DNA of 64,000 bases from Squalus acanthias (Eukaryota), in contig CM059432.1 of assembly GCA_030390025.1 (NCBI GenBank), positions 54,996,001 to 55,060,000 of the forward strand. The letters run 5' to 3'. Position numbers and translations under genes: made by a program. This document shows positions 25,561-37,061 of this stretch, piece by piece (the stretch's first letter is position 1; each line of letters starts with the position of its first letter). The notes below the pieces were generated by a model, which was not told the DNA's origin, ran no database searches, and was given only the letters and a program-made list of their open reading frames with translations.

Positions 25561-26243
25561 TGAAGTGGAGTATTTGAAATAAACACTCGACACCAGGTCT
25601 GCGTTCGAAAATTCAAGCAGTCTTTATTCGCACGGCTGGGGAGACAACCTGCTATCTGTCTAGCCAGGCTTCTCTCCAATGATACAAAGTTTTAAGCAGT
25701 CTTTTATACAAAATTTTGGTACATAATTAGCCTCATGCACGATCCATCTTAACAATTTGATTGGGTTTTGCCCCGCGTGCACATTTACTGATTGGTTGCC
25801 TGTGCCGCGTTACATTAAGGTACCGCCTTTATTACCGGAAAAGTATATGTCCGTTATCACCGCAAGCTGTTGTTGCACCTATGACCTTTGTTTATGCCAG
25901 ATGGGGTCTCACCAACATTGTACTTCTGACTCATTGTCCTGCTTTCCTGCCTCTCTAGGCCTTTTTACTTCCAACTCATTGTTCTACTTTCCTGCAAGAA
26001 CAGAACTTACATCCTCTAGGCCTCTTATGGTTCAACGTCTGACTATTTGCAATTGTCTCCAAGTGACACAGCTTGCAGTTGTTAATCATTCTAACACTAC
26101 TGCAAAATTAATATGTTATTCTTAGGTTATCTCAACTGCCAGTTAAGCAACTTAGAAAAAGCTTACTACTGCAAAGGCCTATTAGCTCATTCGATTCCCA
26201 TTCGTAACCCGTAATTATAGTAGAGCTCGAAAGCCCCACTTCA
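25561..26243 (-). repeat. ERV 3' LTR (683 bp)
   Basis: 8-bp terminal inverted repeat. On the minus strand: two CCAAT boxes (~25760, ~25793), TATAAAAG (~25701-25708), AATAAA (25623-25628). Confidence 0.93.
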
Positions 26244-26476: not shown

Positions 26477-28492
26477 TCAGATCATTCCAGAGTGCATGAA
26501 TTTTTCCTGTTCCTTAACTAAAGCTTTTGCCTTTCTCTTCCTCTGTACTCTTTTACATCCCGCACATGCCATTATGAGCAACATTATTACCAATATAAGT
26601 TGCACGATTACCAATACATGTGAGATTATACGAATCCATGGATGTATATCAACATTCAGTCCCCAATCCCCTACACGTTCCCACCATTGAGTGTCTTTCA
26701 GGGTTTCTTCGATGTCCTTTGAATGCTGTATGGAATCTTCCAAGATCTCATGATAATGTCGTATGCTCTTCTCAGTGTCCTTTTTCAATTGAGTCAGGTG
26801 CTCTTCGAGACGTGGAATGTCTTGCCAACTCGATGTCACATATTGTTCCATTTCATCATCCCATCTCTGGTTGCTGAAGGTGAAGTTCTCGACGTGTTCC
26901 TCTTTTCGTGGGAATAGGTGATGATGACCTAGCTTGGCCACAGGTTTAGGCATAAAACAAAAGTCAGGTCGTGGGATTGCACATTCAGTACCACCATGAT
27001 CGTACTTATTTTCATTGGTTGATATACAGTATGTCCCATTACCCCGGGCTGCCACCTTGGTTCCTCTATGACTGAGGGGACTAATTTCCAACGTGCAATT
27101 AACCGTCTCAGTGAACCCGCACGTCGTGCATTGCCCTCCCTCCATGGGGTGTGCACATACTACCACATCTAAATATTGAGTGCAACCTTCGATTTGCACC
27201 CCCTGGAATGTGTCACTTTGTTTTACCGCATAAGGGGCGTATCGTGGAATTTTACCCGGATTGACCTTGTATTTCGCCTATATTCTGTACTGCCCACAAA
27301 GGTTCGGCCTCCGAGACCTCTATTTGTGGAATAGCTAAAATCATACCTATCAGTTTCAGTTTTTAGTAATGCAATTACTTGGAGATAGGAACACTTGTGT
27401 TGTCTTCCGCACATCGCAGAGGGCAATACCGTCGCGTGTCCATTTGGACAACTGATCATTACTTATCCAATCGGGTATCTTACCCTGTTTCATCTGGTTT
27501 ACATTATGTTGGATATTCCCTAGTAACCATGTGCCGTACATTGCACATACGAGTTCTTTATGTGTTACTTGGGTTAGATCATTCAGTCGTGCACTTATTT
27601 TATTAATGGTTTAGGCATGAGGCTCTAGGATCTCCTCGACCTGTAGCATCTGTCTAGCGATTTCTTCCCCTGTTCCTGATTACCGGGAAGTCAGATCGTT
27701 ACCCTTCTTCAGCAGGGTCCTTAAGCGTTGAGCTATGTCTTGGACTTCTTGGTCTATACTGCTTATGTCAAAGGTGTTAACAGTTGCCACCCCCACCGCA
27801 TACCCTGCTCCTGCCATTTCTAGTATCCCCCTCTTTTTCCTATTTAATTGCCCTTGTGGTCCTATTAATTGTTTCTTTAATAAATTCTCCCATAATCCCG
27901 TCGTGTGTTTATCACATTGCTCGGGTAAGGCTATCCCGCTGATATTAAGGGCAATTTTAATCGTTCGGTGGGACATTCCAAAATATCCCACCTTTCTGGT
28001 TTGTTTCACAGCCAGACCTCCTCGGGCTCCCTCCCATATTTCGGGACATGGCAGAGGGGGCGGCGGGGTTGGCTTCTGTCCCTTTCTTATTTAATACCTT
28101 CCATTTGATTTACTACATGTAACGGTGTCCTCGTCCGCGCCCCGGCGTTGTCGTGGGGGCGCTGTGTCTAGGCATTCAATGGACACTGCATCTATTCGTC
28201 GTGTCCTACTTATGATGCCTCTATTTCCGTGCCAAGTAACATATCCCGTGGAATTCCATTTTAGTAACACAGTAAATCCCACACTCCCCGTTCCCTCCGG
28301 CAAATGGTGGAAGACCTCCGTCCCATCTGTAAGCTTGCCGCCGTCTGCGTAGCTCACTTGGAGTTCAGTTCCGGTTTTTACGTAACGGTGTCCTTTATGG
28401 TCATACTCCTCAATGTTTGGTGCGTAATATAGGGACTTGTTTCCGCTTGTGACAGCGAGGGTTGTAAGAATAATCTATCGGATATTTGCCAT
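26477..28492 (-). pseudogene. env: env-like class I fusion glycoprotein resembling paramyxo/pneumovirus F (~670 codons; several stops, compensating frameshifts)
   Basis: ORF pieces starting at 28357, 28009, 27541 and 27199 share the frame of ATG 28492. Signal-like MANIR*IILTTLAVTSG; furin sites RQRR (28142-28153) and RKKR (27830-27841); fusion peptide GILEMAGAGYAVGVATVN; heptad repeat; GKIPDWISNDQL; Cys-rich region; second helix; TM IISHVLVIVQLILVIMLLIMAC; basic tail. Confidence 0.85.
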
Positions 28493-28512
28493 GTTGATCG
28501 TTGACCTGTGGA

Positions 28513-29413
28513 TTAAAGCATACTCTGGTCGTCACCAGGGGTTATTATTTCTTCTTGTACTATCTCTTCCCTTTCCAACTGGTCCCGCTGAGATCGGTCA
28601 ATGATCCAGCGAACCCACATCCACCAGAAGAGGAGTAGGGTACATCCTACTCCTGCGACTATGGCTATTTGGACGCTGGCCTTTCCCCATACATCAGCCC
28701 AAGTCCTGTTGTCCTCCAATACTATCTCTGCCATTGCTCCATAGGTGTCTCTGAAACAACATAGTTAAGACATACCAGACATATTGAATAGCCTCCCTTG
28801 CATCTAATACAACATCATGTAACATTGACAACTCACTCGGAACCAACACCAATCCGTTAATTGGAGCAGGGAATGGGATGGGGCACTTTGCACTCCCCTC
28901 ATTGGGTGGCATTGGTTTCTCTTTTGCCTTTAATTGAATGGCTTCTTTGGACTGATCAGGAACGATTTTTAATTTGAGGACCATCATGGGAGAAATTTCT
29001 GCTTACACACATATACTCCTGTGTGATTACTTGACCAGAAATTTGTCCAACAGCAACCTGTCCCATCAATTAGCGGGGTAGCTACGATTCCTCTTGCCTT
29101 CCTCAATTCAGGTTATTTGTGGTCTCACCCAGTGCAAACCGGAGTTCTAGGATCGTCCCGTCTTATTTGAGCATTTTAAACAAATCCTTTGCCCCTCATA
29201 CACCCTCTGCTCCGTTACCTTCACCATCCAATTATGACATGTTATAGTTTGATTTTTAATTGTTACATTCATCTCATTTACAACAGAAAACCCTGTATCC
29301 AGTGAGGTTATGGTTCCATTGGTGCTGTTTCCGAGCTGCTGTGATTCCTGATTTAGTTCAATCCCATCCACTACGAGCATCAAAGCGCTCAATGCGTACA
29401 GGAGTTTCCCCAT
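28513..29413 (-). pseudogene. Accessory type I membrane glycoprotein with a putative Ig-like domain (~300 codons, frameshifted)
   Basis: Signal peptide MGKLLYALSALMLVVDG; NST/NGT/NVT/NQT sequons; VYEGQRICLKC ... NHTGVYVC ... VLKLKIV across frames; Pro-rich stalk; TM IAIVAGVGCTLLLFWWMWV; acidic tail; stop 20 nt before the env ATG. Confidence 0.65.
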
Positions 29414-29899
29414 CCTGGAGCTGGTAATCTTGCACCATCAACACTCATCTGGCCCCCTGCTTAAAAGAAAAACAGACAATCCATTGCAGCTTTCCTAAGA
29501 GCCAAATGGGTTAATTCGTCAATCCACTCAAATTTAAAACTTAGAAATTTAACAATGCCCAAAATGTTTACAAAACCCACATCTGCTTGTGGAGTTAAAA
29601 ACAGAGTTCACAGCTGCTTGTGAAAAGAGTTAACTTTCTTTTGCATTTCAAAAGAAGACAAACACAGACATCAATCACTGTCAGGTTTGGTCATACAACT
29701 TCACAGCTTTCAAGTAAATCTTTACTTTTGCAAAGCCTTGTACCTTTAAAATGAGATATCCTAAACATTCTGTGAAGCAACTCCACACAATAGCATTTCC
29801 TTTTTTCTTTTTTTTCCTTTTTGGTCCCCCATACTTGCAATTAGTCAAAAATTTCCAAAAATTGTTGATGTGTTTTTGACACATATCCGGAACTAGTAG

Positions 29900-32800
29900 G
29901 ATAGCAAAATACTGCGGATGCTGGAAAATTGAAACAACAACAGAAAACGCTGGAAAAACTCAGCAGGCCAGGCAACATCAGTGGAGAGAGAAACAGAGTT
30001 AATGTTTCAGGTCAAAACCCTTCGTCAGAACTGAGAAAAAAGCAGGAAATGAAACAGATAAAAAAGGAAGGGGGAGGCTGGGGGGAGGAATAAAAGAACA
30101 AAAGGGGTGGTCTATGGTAAGTAGAGACATTAAGAGATGCTCAAGGCAAGACGGGATGGTAATGGGACAGGTTGAGAAACAAAAGGTGGCTCAGAAGTGT
30201 GAAGTGTGAAATGCTGGCAGAATGAGAGACAGCTGCCTTGGGGGAGAGAGAGAAAAAAAGGGAAAAGGCACAAACCAAAAGGGTGGATAAAATGTATATA
30301 TATACATATATGTGGTAGGGGCCGAGGTTATGATCTGAAACTGTTGAACTCGATATTGAGTCCGGAAGGCTGTAAAATGCCTAATCGGAAGATGAGATGT
30401 TGTTCCTCGAGCTTACGCTGAGCTTCCGTGGAACAATGCACGAGGCCGAGGACGGTGAGGTCTCAATGGGCGTGGAGAGGTGAATTAAAATGACAAGCGA
30501 CCGGAAGCTCGGGGTCACCCTTACGGACTGAACGGAGGTGTTCCGCAAAGCCGTCACCCAATCTGCGTTTGGTCTCCCCAATGTAGAGGAGACCACATCA
30601 TGAGCAGCGAATACAGTATACTAGATTGCAAGAAGTACAAGTAAATTGCTGTTTCACCTGGAAGGGGTGTTTGGGGCCCTGGAGAGTGGGAAGGGGGGAT
30701 GTATAAGGGCATGTGTTGCATCTCCTGCGCTTGCACGGGAAGGTGCCGGGCGAGGGGGAAGGGGTGCTGGGGGTGATAGAGGAGTGGACTAGGGTGTCTC
30801 GGAGGGAGCGGTCCCTACGGAATGCAGAAAGGGGAGGTGAGGGGAAGATACATTTGGTGGTGGGATCACGTTGGAGGTGGCGGAAATGGCGGAGGATGAT
30901 CCGTTGAATGTGGAGGCTGGTGGGATGAAAGGTGAGGACAAGGGTAACTCTATCGTCGTTCCGGGAGGGAGGGGCCGGGGTGAGGGCAGAAGTGCGGGAG
31001 ATAGAACAGACACGGTCGAGGGCCGTGTCGACCACGGTAGAGGGGAATCCTCGGTTGAGGAAAAAGGAAGACATGTCGGAAGCACTGGTATGGAAGGTGG
31101 CATCGTCGGAGCAGATGCGGCGGAGATGGAGAAACTGGGAGAAGGGAATAGAGTCCTTACAGGAGGCGGGGTGGGAGGAAGTGTAGTCCAGGTAGCTGTG
31201 GGAGTCAGTGGGCTTGTAGTGAATGTTGGTCAATAACCTATCCCCAGAGATGGAGATGGAGAAGTCGAGGAAGGGAAGGGAAGAGTCAAAGATGGACCAT
31301 GTGAAGGTGAGGGAAGGGTGGAAATTGGAGGCAAAGTGAATGAAATTGTCTAGTTCAGGGCGAGAGCAGGAAACGGCACCGATACAGTCGTCAATGTACC
31401 GGAAAAAGAGGTGAGGGAGGGGACCCGAGTAGGACTGGAACAAAGAGTGTTCCACATATCCCACGAAAAGGCAGGCATAGCTAGGACCCATGCGGGTACC
31501 CATAGCAACACCTTTGATTTGGAGGAAGTGAGTGGAGTCAAAGGAGAAGTTGTTCAATGTGAGAACAAGTTCAGCCAGGCGGAGGAGGGTGGCGGTGGAT
31601 GGGGACTGGTTGGGCCTCTGTTCAAGGAAGAAGCGGAGCGCCCTCAGGCCATCCTGGTGGGGGATGGAAGTGTAGAGGGATTGTACGTCCATGGTGAAAA
31701 GGAGGCGGTTGGGGCCAGGAAACTGGAAACTGTTAAAGTGGCGGAGGGCGTCAGAGGAATTGCGGATGTAGGTGGGAAGAGACTGGACAAGGGGAGAAAA
31801 AATAGAGTCGAGATAGGAAGAGATAAGTTCCGTGGGGCAAGAACAGGCTGAAACGATGGGTCTACCAGGGCAGTCCTGTTTGTGGATCTTGGGAAGGAGG
31901 TAGAAGCGGGCTGTGCGGGGTTGGGGAACTATGAGGTTGGCGGCCGTGGGGGGAAGATCTCCAGAGGAGATGAGGTCAGTGACAGTCTTGGAAACGGTGG
32001 CTTGATGTTCGGTAGTGGGGTCATGGTCCAGGTGGAGGTAGGAGGAGGTGTCGGAGAGTTGGCGTTCAACGTCCGCTAGGTAGAGGTCGATTCGCCAAAC
32101 AACAACAGCGCCACCCTTGTCAGCAGGTTTAATGACAATGTCGGGGTTGGATTGGAGAGAATGGAGTGCTGCAAGTTCAGAGGGAGGTAGGTTGGAGTGA
32201 GTGAGGGGAGCAGAGAAATTGAGATGGCCGATGTCATGGTGGCAGTTAGCAATGAAAAGATCTAGAGAGGGTAAAAGGCCAGAGGGAGGGGTCCAGGTGG
32301 AACGAGAATTCTGAAAGCGGGAGAAAGGGTCAGCCGTGCGGGGGAAGACTCCTGGCCAAAGAAGTGGGCACGGAGACGAAGGCGGCGGAAAAAGAGCTCA
32401 GCATCGTGCCGAGCTCGAAATTCGTTGAGGTGGGGGCGTAAGGGGATGAAGCTCAGGCCTTTGCTGAGGACTGATCATTCAGGGTCAGAGAGGGGAAGGT
32501 CAGAGGGGATAGTGAAAACGCGGCAAGGGGTGAGATTGGGAGAAGGGGGGTCAGAGGAAAGTGAAGGGGAAGAAGGTTCCGGAGGGGCGTTAGTGTCCAA
32601 GAGTTGTTGAAGCTTGCGATCCTTGACATCGGAAAGGAAGAAGAAAAGTTTTTGTTGAAGCGTCGGATGAGTCTAAGGATGAAATGGAACTGTGGACCCG
32701 GACAGCTTTGAGATAGAGTGCGTCGGTGCTGCTGAAGAGAGAGGTCGAGAGTGTTCATGTGGCGCCGCATGGCGTTGAGCGTGGATCTCAAGATGCGGCG

Positions 32801-33447: not shown

Positions 33448-33804
33448 CTAATAGCTTCGTGTCGGTAAAACTTTAATTTTTCCCTTATTCCTTTTCTTAA
33501 ATTGCCTCCACAACTTATTCTCCCAGTCATATCTCACTTGCGGTTGCAGCATGCAGTTCCATCCGTCCCCTTTATTTCCCTTTGGGATTACCCGCACCTC
33601 TCCTGATTTATCCTCTCCTGCTGCGCCCCACAAACAATCATTATGCCAGTCCACTATCGCATTGTGGGCCAGCCTCCAATCAGAGCCTAGCACCCCATGC
33701 CCTTCCTTATCCCAATTCATAAGAACATATTCCCACTTTGATTCTAGTCCCCCTACCTTAACTTTTAAAGGTCTTGATACCACCCCTGCCTTTTGGTTGC
33801 CCAT
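33448..33804 (-). pseudogene. pro: C-terminal half of a retroviral aspartic protease
   Basis: GHGVLGSDW matches the ILGRD-type motif of retropepsins; the catalytic D[TS]G half is absent; fused to gag sequence at ~33800. Confidence 0.65.
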
Positions 33805-34826
33805 CGTACTAGGTCATCATATGTTTGCATTGTGACCAGACCGGTTTTTAATATGGCTTGGTGAGCGCTACTTAGTCCCTCTTTATACATCTTTTGAAAG
33901 GCTAGGTTGTTCTTGTCGGGTTGTACCATGCCTGAACGGGCCAGAAAACTGGTCCATTTTCGTTCTCCATAGTCGAGTGCGGACTCCTTTATTTTGAGTG
34001 AACCCCATTATTATTCCCTAGTTTATGGGTACTACTCCCATAACTCGTGTAACCTTGCCTCTGAACAGGTCGTAACTTGCCTCTTGTTGGGCAACTGTGG
34101 GTGCCACTTCATCGCACCATATTCCGTCCCTGAAATTTTGGGACCATTTGTCCCCACATAGCCTCGCTCATTTTTGCTCTGACTAATCCTGCAACATCAC
34201 GATTGTGAAAGTTGTGGCATATTCGCATTTCCTTCATTTTTTGCCAAAATGCCCCATTACTCTGTCTGGGTTTTAAATCAGGTAGTATTTGCAGTAATTT
34301 TAATTTATCACTCGGTGAGAATGACACATAAGTTGTTTTAATCTGTTGAGCGCCTGCAAGGGTGCCTCCGACATCCGCAGCTCCAGGTATGAACTCTACC
34401 TTAATGGGGGCTGCTGGCATTTGTTTCCCATAAGGGGGTGGTCCGTCCCACCCATGGTCTCTGTCGTAATCAGCTGCCTTTCTACCTAAGTCTCCCCAAT
34501 TTACATCGTCGTCGTCCTGTCCCTTTTTCTTATTTGATACCGGAGGGGCAGTAGCCATTACCGGCATCCGTGTTCACTTTGCACACCCGTCCTTAGTCCA
34601 ACGTCGAGTACGTCTACTCAATTCATAATACGCGCGAGTAACTAAAACGAGGGCTTTTTCCTCTTTTTGTCTCTTTTCCGACTCCCACCATTTCCTTTGA
34701 TCGGCGGGTGGGTCGTCGGGTTTCCAATTTGACTTAATCATGTTTTCAATTAGTTTCTGATTCTTGTCTGCTAGGTACCGCGTCAAGGACCCCTCCGGTC
34801 CCTACTTGAGTTTTTCCACTTCCCAT
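33795..34826 (-). pseudogene. gag: gag (MA, late domain, CA; NC missing), frameshifted
   Basis: Located after the PBS; possible myristoylation start GCC-ATG-GGA (MGSGKT); ATAPP and GPPPY motifs; CA-like YVSFSPSDKLKLLQILPDL...FWQKM and TYDDLVRWAT. Confidence 0.72.
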
Positions 34827-35122
34827 GGCTATTCGTTGTCAACGGTACGTCTCTTACTTACTCCCACAGAGTGAGACCGTTAATTGCAACTTATACCAAT
34901 TATTAATCGCAACGTTACACAGACACTTCGACATAACCGATCGTAATCGTTTCACTTGGGAACTACTGCAGACTAGTTGAAGTTTCGGCCAGACTTGCAG
35001 ATTCGGATACCTGGGGTGGCTGACACAGGACGACTTCCACTCTGTCCTTACTAAGTGTGGTAATTTCAAACGTACTCACACGGTGGCTTGGTTTTGTCCG
35101 CCTGTGTCCTCCGTCCGTAGGT

Positions 35123-35140
35123 ATCCTGCCGACTATGCCA
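35123..35140 (-). promoter_or_regulatory. Primer binding site, tRNA-Ser
   Basis: TGGCATAGTCGGCAGGAT, 2 nt from the LTR end; 17/18 match to the complement of the vertebrate tRNA-Ser 3' end as I recall it (TGGCGTAGTCGGCAGGAT). Confidence 0.85.
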
Positions 35141-35142
35141 AC

Positions 35143-35605
35143 TGAAGTGGAGTATTTGAAATAAACACACGACACCAGGTCCCTGCATTTCTCTTGTAAT
35201 TGACGCGCGGTGAAGATCATGTCCATTGTGCCCCTTAGTGGGCGGAATCCGCATTGCGACTCTGGGAGGAGCTCTTCAGCCACTGGGAGAAGGCGACTGA
35301 GGAGGATTCTTGCGATGACTTTCCCTGTGGCAGACAGCAGGGAAACTCCTCTGTAATTACCGCAATCGGACTTGTCACCTTTCTTGAAGATGGTCACAAT
35401 TACGGCGTCTCTGAGATCCCCTGGCATGCTCTCCTCCTTCCAGATAAGAGAAATTAGTTCATGAATTCGCACCAGTAGTGCTTCTCTGCCATGCTTTAGT
35501 GCCTCGGCAGGGATTCCATCTGCTCCTGAGGCCTTGTTGTTCTTCAGTTGTCGGATGGCCTTTTCAACCTCATGCCGGGCTGGGGTTGTGCTGAGGTGGT
35601 GGCGG
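35143..35605 (-). repeat. Duplicated segment: 39-bp LTR end (35143-35181) plus a copy of the 3' RTE flank (35181-35605, equivalent to 25149-25560)
   Basis: Direct comparison shows about 11 substitutions and a 13-bp indel between the two flank copies. Confidence 0.92.
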
Positions 35606-37061
35606 TGAAGTGGAGTATTTGAAAAAACACTCGACACCAGGTCTGCGTTCGAAGATTCAAGCAGTCTTTATTCGCACCGCTGGGGAGACAACCTGCTATC
35701 TGTCTAGCCAGGCTTCTCTCCAATGATACAAAGTTTTAAACAGTCTTCTATACAAAATTTTGGTACATAATTAGCCTCATGCACGATCCATCTTAACAAT
35801 TTGATTGGGTTTTGCCCCGCGTGCACATTTACTGATTGGTTGCCTATGCCGCGTTACATTAAGGTACTGCCTTTATTACCGGAAAAGTATATGTCCGTTA
35901 TCACCGCAAGCTGTTGTTGCACCTATGACCATTGTTTATGCCAGATGGGGTCTCACCAACATTGCTGTAGGATAGGGTGTATATGTATGATTTAGTAAAA
36001 CATTTTTGTATAACTATAATATGTGAAATTGTATGTTAAAAGCCCAAAAGCCTGTATAAAATGGCGAATGGCTGAGAGAAAAGCAGGATGGGAAATTATG
36101 CCAACCTGACTGAAACTCGCTCTGTTTTCAATTACTGAAGTAATGGAATGTAATGCTAAGTTTATGGGGACTATCAGGAACGTGGTATTCAGTAATGTGA
36201 TAGAAAAGAGATAAGAGTTGGATAGAGAGAGATAAGAGAAGCACCTCTCAGTGATACTACTATAAAATGGACAGATTGTTTAGACAACATCTTGGGAAAT
36301 GGTTTTTGGAAAGAGAACATCTAAAGAAAAAGGACCCTTTGATATGCACAAAGCGAGTCCGAGTGGGATCAACAAGGTCATAAAACATGTACTAGGTGTC
36401 GGATAGCTGTTTGCAGTCACGTAGGCAAAGGGAAAAAAGTGTATAAAGATACGGATATTGAACACTGAAGGCAGCGCGAACCCAGAATCAGAGTTGAAGG
36501 AACTTCAGTCAAGCGAAAGCAGCAAGAGGATAAAGAGACCGCGCCACAGTCGCTCGGAAGGAACGCCGAGGCTTAAACGAGCAAGACTGTGACTATCTCC
36601 TTGTTAAGTATTACTTCTTTGTACTCGATGTTTAATGCTTAATAAACCTGTTTTACTTGTACACAATATACCTGTACCCAGAGTGGTTTGTGTAGTCACG
36701 GACAAATTATTATAAGAACTTTTGGAAGCTACATTGCACTTCTGACTCATTGTCCTGCTTTCCTGCCTCTCTAGGCCATTTTACTTCCAACTCATTGTTC
36801 TACTTTCCTGCCAGAACATAACTTACATCCTCTAGGCCTCTTATCATTCAACGTCCGACTATTTGCAATTGTCTCCAAAGTGACACAGCTTGCAGTCGTT
36901 AATCATTCTAACACTACTGCAAAATTAATATGTTATTCTTAGGTTATCTCAACTGCCAGTTCAGCAACTTAGAAAAAGCTTACTACTGTAAAGCCCTATT
37001 AGCTCATTCGATTCCCATTCTTAACCCTTTAATTATAGTAGAGTTCGAAAGCCCCACTTCA
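35606..37061 (-). repeat. ERV 5' LTR, interrupted by a foreign solo LTR
   Basis: 35606-35965 plus 36738-37061 is colinear with 25561-26243, with a few percent divergence. Confidence 0.93.
35966..36733 (+). mobile_element. Solo LTR (768 bp) of a different family
   Basis: TGTAG...CTACA termini; TSD TTGC (35962-35965, 36734-36737); TATAAAA at 36261; AATAAA at 36641. Confidence 0.88.

What the first reader, a model, noticed from the sequence alone, without database searches (positions are those of the whole stretch)
28513..29413. ORF-X: candidate captured Ig-superfamily membrane gene in a retrovirus
Across frameshifts the ORF reads VYEGQRICLKC (B-strand Cys), a Trp ~10-20 aa later, NHTGVYVC (D-x-G-x-Y-x-C-like F strand) and VLKLKIV (G strand). 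These are followed by a Pro-rich stalk, a TM helix and an acidic tail. The Ig assignment is pattern-based inference from a damaged copy.
Basis: inference. Interest (0 to 1): 0.7.

Follow-up and report, generated by a model that had tools for sequence, protein, structure and literature searches.

The report
Shortened second envelope gene in retrovirus
A broken gene in a dead retrovirus copy, probably from a shark, encodes a membrane protein that is likely a shortened second version of the virus's own envelope gene, with a possibly antibody-like tip but no fusion machinery, rather than a gene taken from the host; it would bind a cell receptor without fusing membranes.

Summary
ORF-X is real. It lies on the minus strand of a decayed provirus that lacks pol, 20 nt before a full envelope gene. 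Indels seen in other copies mark five breaks and fix a frame path that is the only one of 243 with at most one stop, so the pieces join. The B-strand Cys and G-x-Y-x-C remain, but no Pfam Ig family and no host donor was found. The 'Pro-rich stalk' and the ~55 residues after it line up, at exact spacing, with the end of the surface subunit of this virus family's own F-type Env (CP-x8-GL…NxSG). Pairwise p is about 0.001 for one of six targets; profile tests were not significant. A transmembrane helix stands where Env has its furin site and fusion peptide. Best reading: an env-derived, fusion-dead, membrane-anchored surface-subunit protein beside the real Env, which probably bound a receptor (interference or attachment). 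Fold, expression and function are untested; a dead recombination leftover is the main rival.

The parts
28513..29413 (-). ORF-X, broken in this copy (five breaks, one in-register stop at 28767); roughly 300-310 codons
29354..29413 (-). likely signal peptide, followed by four N-glycosylation sequons (residues 29, 32, 49, 54)
   Evidence: hydropathy KD19 1.44 and sequon scan; no signal-peptide predictor run
28965..29227 (-). head domain, possibly Ig-like: A'/B-strand motif with CxxC (29203-29171) and G-x-Y-x-C motif (from 29028)
   Evidence: weak
28690..28930 (-). Pro-rich linker plus a segment collinear with the C-terminal part of the Env surface subunit (CP-x8-GL, NxSG 34 residues after the Cys, then Cys and an amphipathic helix)
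28612..28668 (-). transmembrane helix, at the position where Env has its furin site and fusion peptide
   Evidence: KD19 2.08; position
28516..28611 (-). short acidic cytoplasmic tail
   Evidence: sequence
29457..29477 (-). candidate splice acceptor for ORF-X (T-rich pyrimidine tract, AG ending 29457), 44 nt before the ATG
   Evidence: no spliced read seen
28506..28526 (-). weak candidate splice acceptor for env, overlapping the ORF-X stop
   Evidence: pyrimidine fraction 0.53
26477..28492 (-). full env, decayed: 671 codons, RKKR site, long Cys-rich ectodomain, TM; member of a shark F-like Env family
25561..26243 (-). 3' LTR (TG...CA), preceded by a polypurine tract at 26255-26246
35606..37061 (-). 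5' LTR with a ~770-nt insert; 21 of 682 aligned bases differ from the 3' LTR; 4-bp target duplication with one mismatch inside an RTE-type LINE (LINE label recalled)
35123..35140 (-). primer-binding-site-like 18-mer (tRNA-Ser match recalled, not tested)
33770..34900 (-). broken gag-like region (label from position and recall; no Pfam hit); no pol seen between it and ORF-X
29890..32700 (-). inserted Penelope-like retroelement (RT plus GIY-YIG-like motif; ends approximate; label recalled), unrelated to ORF-X
   Evidence: RVT_1 E 1.1e-5

Best explanation
ORF-X is a broken membrane-protein gene directly upstream of env, and it is likely a shortened second envelope gene: signal peptide, a possibly Ig-like head, Pro-rich linker and the end of the surface subunit, then a membrane anchor in place of the cleavage site and fusion core, so that it would bind a cell receptor without fusing membranes. 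Shown: one ORF, the membrane layout, the tandem position before a full env, the same arrangement in other copies. Inferred (about 70%): descent from an env of the same F-type family, by duplication or by recombination between two subfamilies, with loss of the fusion subunit. Inferred (weaker): translation from its own spliced RNA through the acceptor at 29457, display on the infected cell, and binding of the receptor that its parent Env used. The most likely use is receptor interference (occupying the receptor of a related envelope), as truncated Envs such as Refrex-1 do; an attachment role on virions is the alternative.
For: Single ORF: (1 of 243 paths). Env likeness: local score 57 against the Chiloscyllium Env P0014, reached by 0 of 500 shuffles, 4 of 4000 shuffles and 1 of 402 six-frame control windows; about p 0.006 after correcting for six targets. 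The same ungapped register is the best BLOSUM45 local match of the C-terminal half to P0005 (p 0.056). Global alignment to the window's own Env surface subunit p 0.008. Cys-Pro, Gly-Leu at +10 and NxSG at +34 keep the spacing of all five Envs printed that hold the whole block (three distinct types), across a break placed independently. A conserved-column scan picks this block as best at widths 40, 50 and 60. The head shares VY.G..IC..C and Y.C motifs with shark Env heads. Contigs bridge the head-to-anchor break at 28786 in runs X1 and X7, and X7 contigs bridge the ORF-X stop and the env start; the three listed contigs over the TM region have no gaps (tables 4 and 8). A-rich coding strand like gag and env (0.31 vs 0.34 and 0.33). 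Earlier AI notes report Ig-headed F-type Envs in this genome (leads only).
Against: Profile tests are not significant for the stalk block: HMMs matched only residues 32-58; hhalign E 0.044 and 0.57; averaged profile p 0.066; block scan reached by 12 of 150 shuffles at best and 27, 30 and 86 of 150 at other widths. Five of six pairwise targets gave no significant match at this block. Global p for P0005 was 0.13, and UNC-89 scored as well as Env (p 0.004, though it was picked by the ORF-X search). The in-register last segment adds only 5 points (52 to 57). No DNA similarity between ORF-X and env. The stop at 28767 lies before the TM, and one search does not show whether other copies share it. 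One X1 contig shares the 28960 lesion, so some copies spread while broken. No evidence of expression, selection, fold or binding.
Confidence: 0.45

Rival explanations
1. Env-derived but never useful: a recombinant kept the 5' half of one subfamily's env in front of another subfamily's env, and the anchor and tail are drifted or chance sequence carried along in a non-autonomous element.
For: Summed contig depth falls roughly tenfold left of 28790 in both DNA-type runs and contigs leave at 28787 (depth is no copy number), so most relatives of the head seem to continue differently. The element lacks pol. One in-register stop precedes the TM.
Against: Env likeness appears to run on past 28787 to the end of the surface subunit, and the last segment ends in a clean TM, acidic tail and stop 20 nt before env. 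The arrangement is found in two organisms without gaps in the TM region.
Confidence: 0.27
2. A captured host Ig-superfamily membrane gene: a host receptor mRNA recombined into the virus and served as an immune decoy or adhesion protein.
For: Type I layout. The top hits of two unbiased searches are Ig proteins (UNC-89 E 1.2e-6 summed over repeats; LRFN5 E 0.028; its Ig domain is recalled). An I-set profile ranks ORF-X first of 426 six-frame windows and above 300 shuffles (7.2 vs 5.5 bits). AT-rich non-coding DNA lies upstream.
Against: No donor found. The best single UNC-89 domain scores 9.4 bits, and an unrelated repeat ORF scored almost as high overall (39 vs 45 bits). The profile was built from the hit itself. 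The Trp and G strand are out of register, and the PDB hit is lost with in-register pieces. No Pfam Ig hit. The stalk resembles Env.
Confidence: 0.13
3. A virus-native accessory glycoprotein of unrelated origin; both the Ig-like and the Env-like motifs are chance or convergence.
For: Every single similarity is weak and many comparisons were made. A third, out-of-order likeness (residues 32-58 to the Env fusion-peptide region, HMM E 0.002) shows how easily such matches arise.
Against: Several anchors fall in the right order and at exact spacing.
Confidence: 0.15

Closest known systems
Lokiretrovirus Env (Wang & Han, PMC7947760; parts 1-3 of 4 of the main text read, supplement searched by keyword)
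   Same: The downstream env has an RxKR site, helical regions and a TM, and its relative P0005 leans to F-type families in the Atlas (PF12259, PF00523; scores 0.91-0.92, low recognition).
   Different: That paper reports gag, pol, env and sometimes smc, no second env-like ORF in the parts read, and a supplement row lists 3 Chondrichthyes genomes with 0 hits.
Truncated ERV envelopes acting by receptor competition: Refrex-1 (PMC9245640, abstract and opening read), FeLIX (PMC11019853, search listing only)
   Same: Signal peptide plus surface-subunit part without the fusion subunit; predicted to bind a receptor without fusing.
   Different: Those are soluble, gamma-type, host-domesticated single loci. 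ORF-X has a membrane anchor, belongs to an F-type family and sits inside multi-copy elements next to a full env.
Foamy virus Env and paramyxo-/pneumovirus F (PMC11468914, passages read)
   Same: F-type core with nested domains built from both subunits; domain II has an Ig-superfamily fold; a separate receptor-binding domain lies in the N-terminal subunit.
   Different: Foamy Env is one protein. The paramyxovirus split into an attachment protein plus F (recalled) uses an unrelated attachment protein, whereas ORF-X would be an Env paralogue.
Ig I-set domains (UNC-89 of Trichinella, LRFN5/SALM5)
   Same: A'/B-strand V-x-E-G-Q-x-x-x-L-x-C and F-strand G-x-Y-x-C-x-x-x-N patterns.
   Different: No in-register C-strand Trp, His for the Asp of D-x-G-x-Y-x-C, no Pfam hit, no close relative.

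Membership tests
Ig superfamily (V/I/C2-set) | B-strand Cys with A' V-x-x-G motif | tested here: met
   motif at 29203-29171; a similar motif occurs in shark Env heads
Ig superfamily (V/I/C2-set) | C-strand Trp 10-15 residues after the Cys | tested here: not met
   the Trp is out of register and differs in most other-copy depth; a few codons are missing at this break in this copy
Ig superfamily (V/I/C2-set) | F-strand D-x-G-x-Y-x-C, 55-75 residues after the first Cys | tested here: inconclusive
   G, Y and C present in register at about 56 positions, His for Asp; 0.0 bits on its own
Ig superfamily (V/I/C2-set) | match to a curated Ig profile | tested here: not met
   no Pfam Ig family in any single frame or piece; single frames of a broken gene lower sensitivity
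Ig superfamily (V/I/C2-set) | beta-sandwich fold | not testable with these tools
   no intact ORF-X protein in the collections; ORF-X was not folded
captured host gene | a host donor closer than any viral relative | tested here: not met
   the N-terminal 239-codon frame was searched exhaustively, the TM-tail segment was not; no host genome held
shark F-type Env family (P0001, P0005-P0016, window env) | surface-subunit block CP-x8-GL...[ND][IV]SG | tested here: inconclusive
   present at exact spacing; pairwise p about 0.001 for 1 of 6 targets; profile tests not significant
shark F-type Env family (P0001, P0005-P0016, window env) | furin site, fusion peptide, heptad repeats and Cys-rich fusion core | tested here: not met
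   absent from ORF-X, which ends about 60 residues after the surface-subunit segment
lokiretroviruses (the element) | RT groups as sister to other retroviruses; tether plus RNase H | not testable with these tools
   no pol in this copy; no related locus fetched
lokiretroviruses (the element) | Env similar to PF00523 with RxKR site | tested here: inconclusive
   RKKR present; no Pfam hit; Atlas lead only; model unusable, pLDDT 33

The most novel reading that the evidence does not exclude
A lineage of cartilaginous-fish retroviruses evolved a two-glycoprotein entry system by env duplication. One copy kept the F-type fusion machine. The other kept an Ig-like receptor-binding head, lost the fusion subunit and gained a membrane anchor where the fusion peptide had been, becoming a dedicated attachment protein. 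That is the paramyxovirus division of labour, reinvented in a retrovirus.
Probability: 0.15. Interest if true: 0.82.

Novelty: new variant of a known kind. Interest (0 to 1): 0.5.

Why it matters
If ORF-X worked, it is a virus-encoded, membrane-anchored receptor-binding protein made from env and kept beside a full env. I found no such layout in print: searches returned no paper, and the listings showed none on it (titles and abstract starts only; passages of three of those papers read). It would show how attachment can be split from fusion in F-type fusogens, and that ERV subfamilies may block each other's receptors. It also warns that Ig-like motifs in these shark elements need not mean host-gene capture. 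If it is a leftover, it is one more recombinant in a genome rich in such ERVs.

Tried and rejected
Homologue searches for ORF-X: none at near lengths; only two repeat-inflated hits among representatives; none in JGI metagenomes. Env relatives gave no locus in viral or metagenome contigs, so no gene layout of a relative could be read. Pfam: no Ig or Env family (the env reference was in the wrong frame and was redone). PDB by sequence: nothing for env or Env heads; in-register ORF-X pieces gave no Ig hit. Folding of Env P0005 (pLDDT 33) and of its head (pLDDT 45) was too poor; Foldseek gave no match and VIA-align a best Z of 3.5 among mixed beta-sandwiches, so whether Env heads are Ig-like is inconclusive. 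Atlas on the Env head: no usable hit. No RNA holder on record was listed; the two runs guessed to be RNA show only contigs and no splice joint, which says nothing on expression. Look-ups of earlier findings by place, words or sequence found no look-alike, so ORF-X is not shown to belong to the Ig-headed Env family of the earlier notes. ORF 33813-33451 does not match the integrase tail in P0014. No complex prediction was sent. bioRxiv supplements were closed, and those of 10.1101/2023.10.26.564294 might list F-type elements with extra ORFs.

Full report
Setting. The finding lies in a decayed LTR element on the minus strand. The 5' LTR starts at 37061 and the 3' LTR spans 26243-25561, both TG...CA; they differ at 21 of 682 aligned bases. 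A 4-bp target duplication with one mismatch places the insertion inside an RTE-type LINE (LINE label recalled). Inside are a primer-site-like 18-mer, a broken gag-like region, no visible pol, an inserted Penelope-like element (RVT_1), ORF-X, and 20 nt after its stop a 671-codon env. The env belongs to a family of 13 proteins, 12 of them named from sharks. It has an RKKR site and a long Cys-rich ectodomain, and a relative leans to F-type fusogens in the Atlas (a lead only). No host genome is held.

Observation. ORF-X runs 29413 to 28513 and holds all quoted motifs. Twenty of 24 listed runs, from 10 studies, hold part of it; I laid 4 of them. Other copies carry extra letters at five places. The implied frame path is the only one of 243 with at most one stop, so the pieces are one ORF: signal-like start, four sequons, head, Pro-rich linker, TM and acidic tail. 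Two of the five indels rest on minority or single-run evidence, and I dropped a sixth seen in one contig. In this register the Trp and VLKLKIV are out of frame. The Trp codon also differs in most other-copy depth.

Ig test. No Pfam Ig family scored. The exhaustive search gave two hits: UNC-89 (E 1.2e-6, summed over repeats, best domain 9.4 bits) and an unrelated repeat ORF that scored nearly as well. The PDB top hit, LRFN5 at E 0.028, was lost with in-register pieces. An I-set profile from 32 UNC-89 segments gave the X-at-break read 7.2 bits, against a best of 5.5 among 300 shuffles, and ranked the ORF-X window first of 426. This test is circular for the B-strand motif but not for G-x-Y-x-C-x-x-x-N. 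I put an Ig-like head at about even odds. No donor gene was found.

Env test. After the head, ORF-X reads KPMPP...CPIPFPAPINGLVL...NMSGM..C..YGAMAEIVLED. The Envs read, for example, PTMTPEILPCPSLGPGPVGGLVL...NISGI...C...YAMMGKEVIER (P0014) and KPTPPPPLPCPEIWEGARGGLAV...NISGI (window env). The Cys-to-NxSG distance is 34 in ORF-X and in all five Envs printed that hold the whole block (three distinct types), across the break at 28786. Statistics are mixed. For: P0014 score 57, reached by 4 of 4000 shuffles and 1 of 402 real control windows; window env global p 0.008. Against: five of six pairwise targets not significant at this block; HMM, hhalign and averaged-profile tests not significant; block scan reached by 12 of 150 shuffles at best. 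The head motif also has a counterpart in Env heads (E 0.045). Folding could not decide whether those heads are Ig-like. Where Env has its furin site and fusion peptide, ORF-X has its TM helix, and it then ends. I put env descent at about 70%.

Copies. Contigs bridge head to anchor in runs X1 and X7, and ORF-X stop to env start in X7, so the tandem layout is not a one-off. Summed depth falls about tenfold left of 28790 and contigs leave at 28787, a hint that most relatives of the head continue differently. What they continue with is left open. Earlier AI notes describe abundant Ig-headed F-type Envs in this genome, but no sequence link to them was found.

Mechanism. Shown: anatomy and position. 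Inferred: a spliced RNA through the acceptor at 29457 gives a glycosylated type I protein that reaches the cell surface and binds the receptor of its parent Env. It cannot fuse, because F-type cores are built from both subunits (PMC11468914, passages) and the fusion subunit is missing. Precedent favours receptor interference (Refrex-1, PMC9245640, abstract); an attachment role beside the fusogen is the bolder reading. This copy is dead. The stop at 28767 might be shared by other copies, which would mean a secreted or dead product.

Known systems. Lokiretroviruses have F-like Env but, in the parts read, no second env-like ORF, and 0 of 3 cartilaginous-fish genomes were positive (PMC7947760). 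Membership cannot be tested without pol. Other papers seen as passages: 10.1101/2023.10.26.564294, PMC12440569, 10.1101/2024.03.25.586437 (69), PMC10536682, PMC10072453; none of the passages described this layout.

Verdict. Observation partly confirmed; host capture not supported. Best reading: a fusion-dead, membrane-anchored env paralogue (0.45). Rivals: dead env leftover (0.27), unrelated accessory protein (0.15), captured host gene (0.13). New variant of a known kind; interest 0.5.

Noticed in passing
window 35140-37061: After the full 5' LTR come about 420 nt copied from the LINE sequence that follows the 3' LTR (11 of 410 bases differ), then the last ~40 nt of the LTR again, then the primer site. 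It looks like a template switch between a solo-LTR allele and the provirus.
   Followed up: partly
window 29422-29472: The block holding the candidate acceptor shows a depth spike, and many contigs leave on both sides in all four runs: it seems shared by subfamilies with different downstream sequence, like a slot with changing cargo.
   Followed up: no
window 29243-29320: ORF-X residues 32-58 resemble the fusion-peptide region of shark Envs (HMM E 0.002, above all 1000 shuffles for one profile), out of order; unexplained, perhaps compositional.
   Followed up: partly
window 33451-33813: Open 120-codon frame after gag, Trp-rich, with no Pfam family and no match to an integrase tail.
   Followed up: partly
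protein P0014 (Chiloscyllium): The gene model joins what looks like an integrase C-terminal tail (recalled motif) directly to env, suggesting that this relative has no ORF-X between pol and env.
   Followed up: no
proteins P0005, P0020, P0022-P0024: A Mustelus Env cluster has open 699-722 aa members, some on ~9-kb contigs: a young family with a Cys-rich head unlike that of the window's env.
   Followed up: partly
window 35966-36737: About 770-nt insert in the 5' LTR only, not identified.
   Followed up: no
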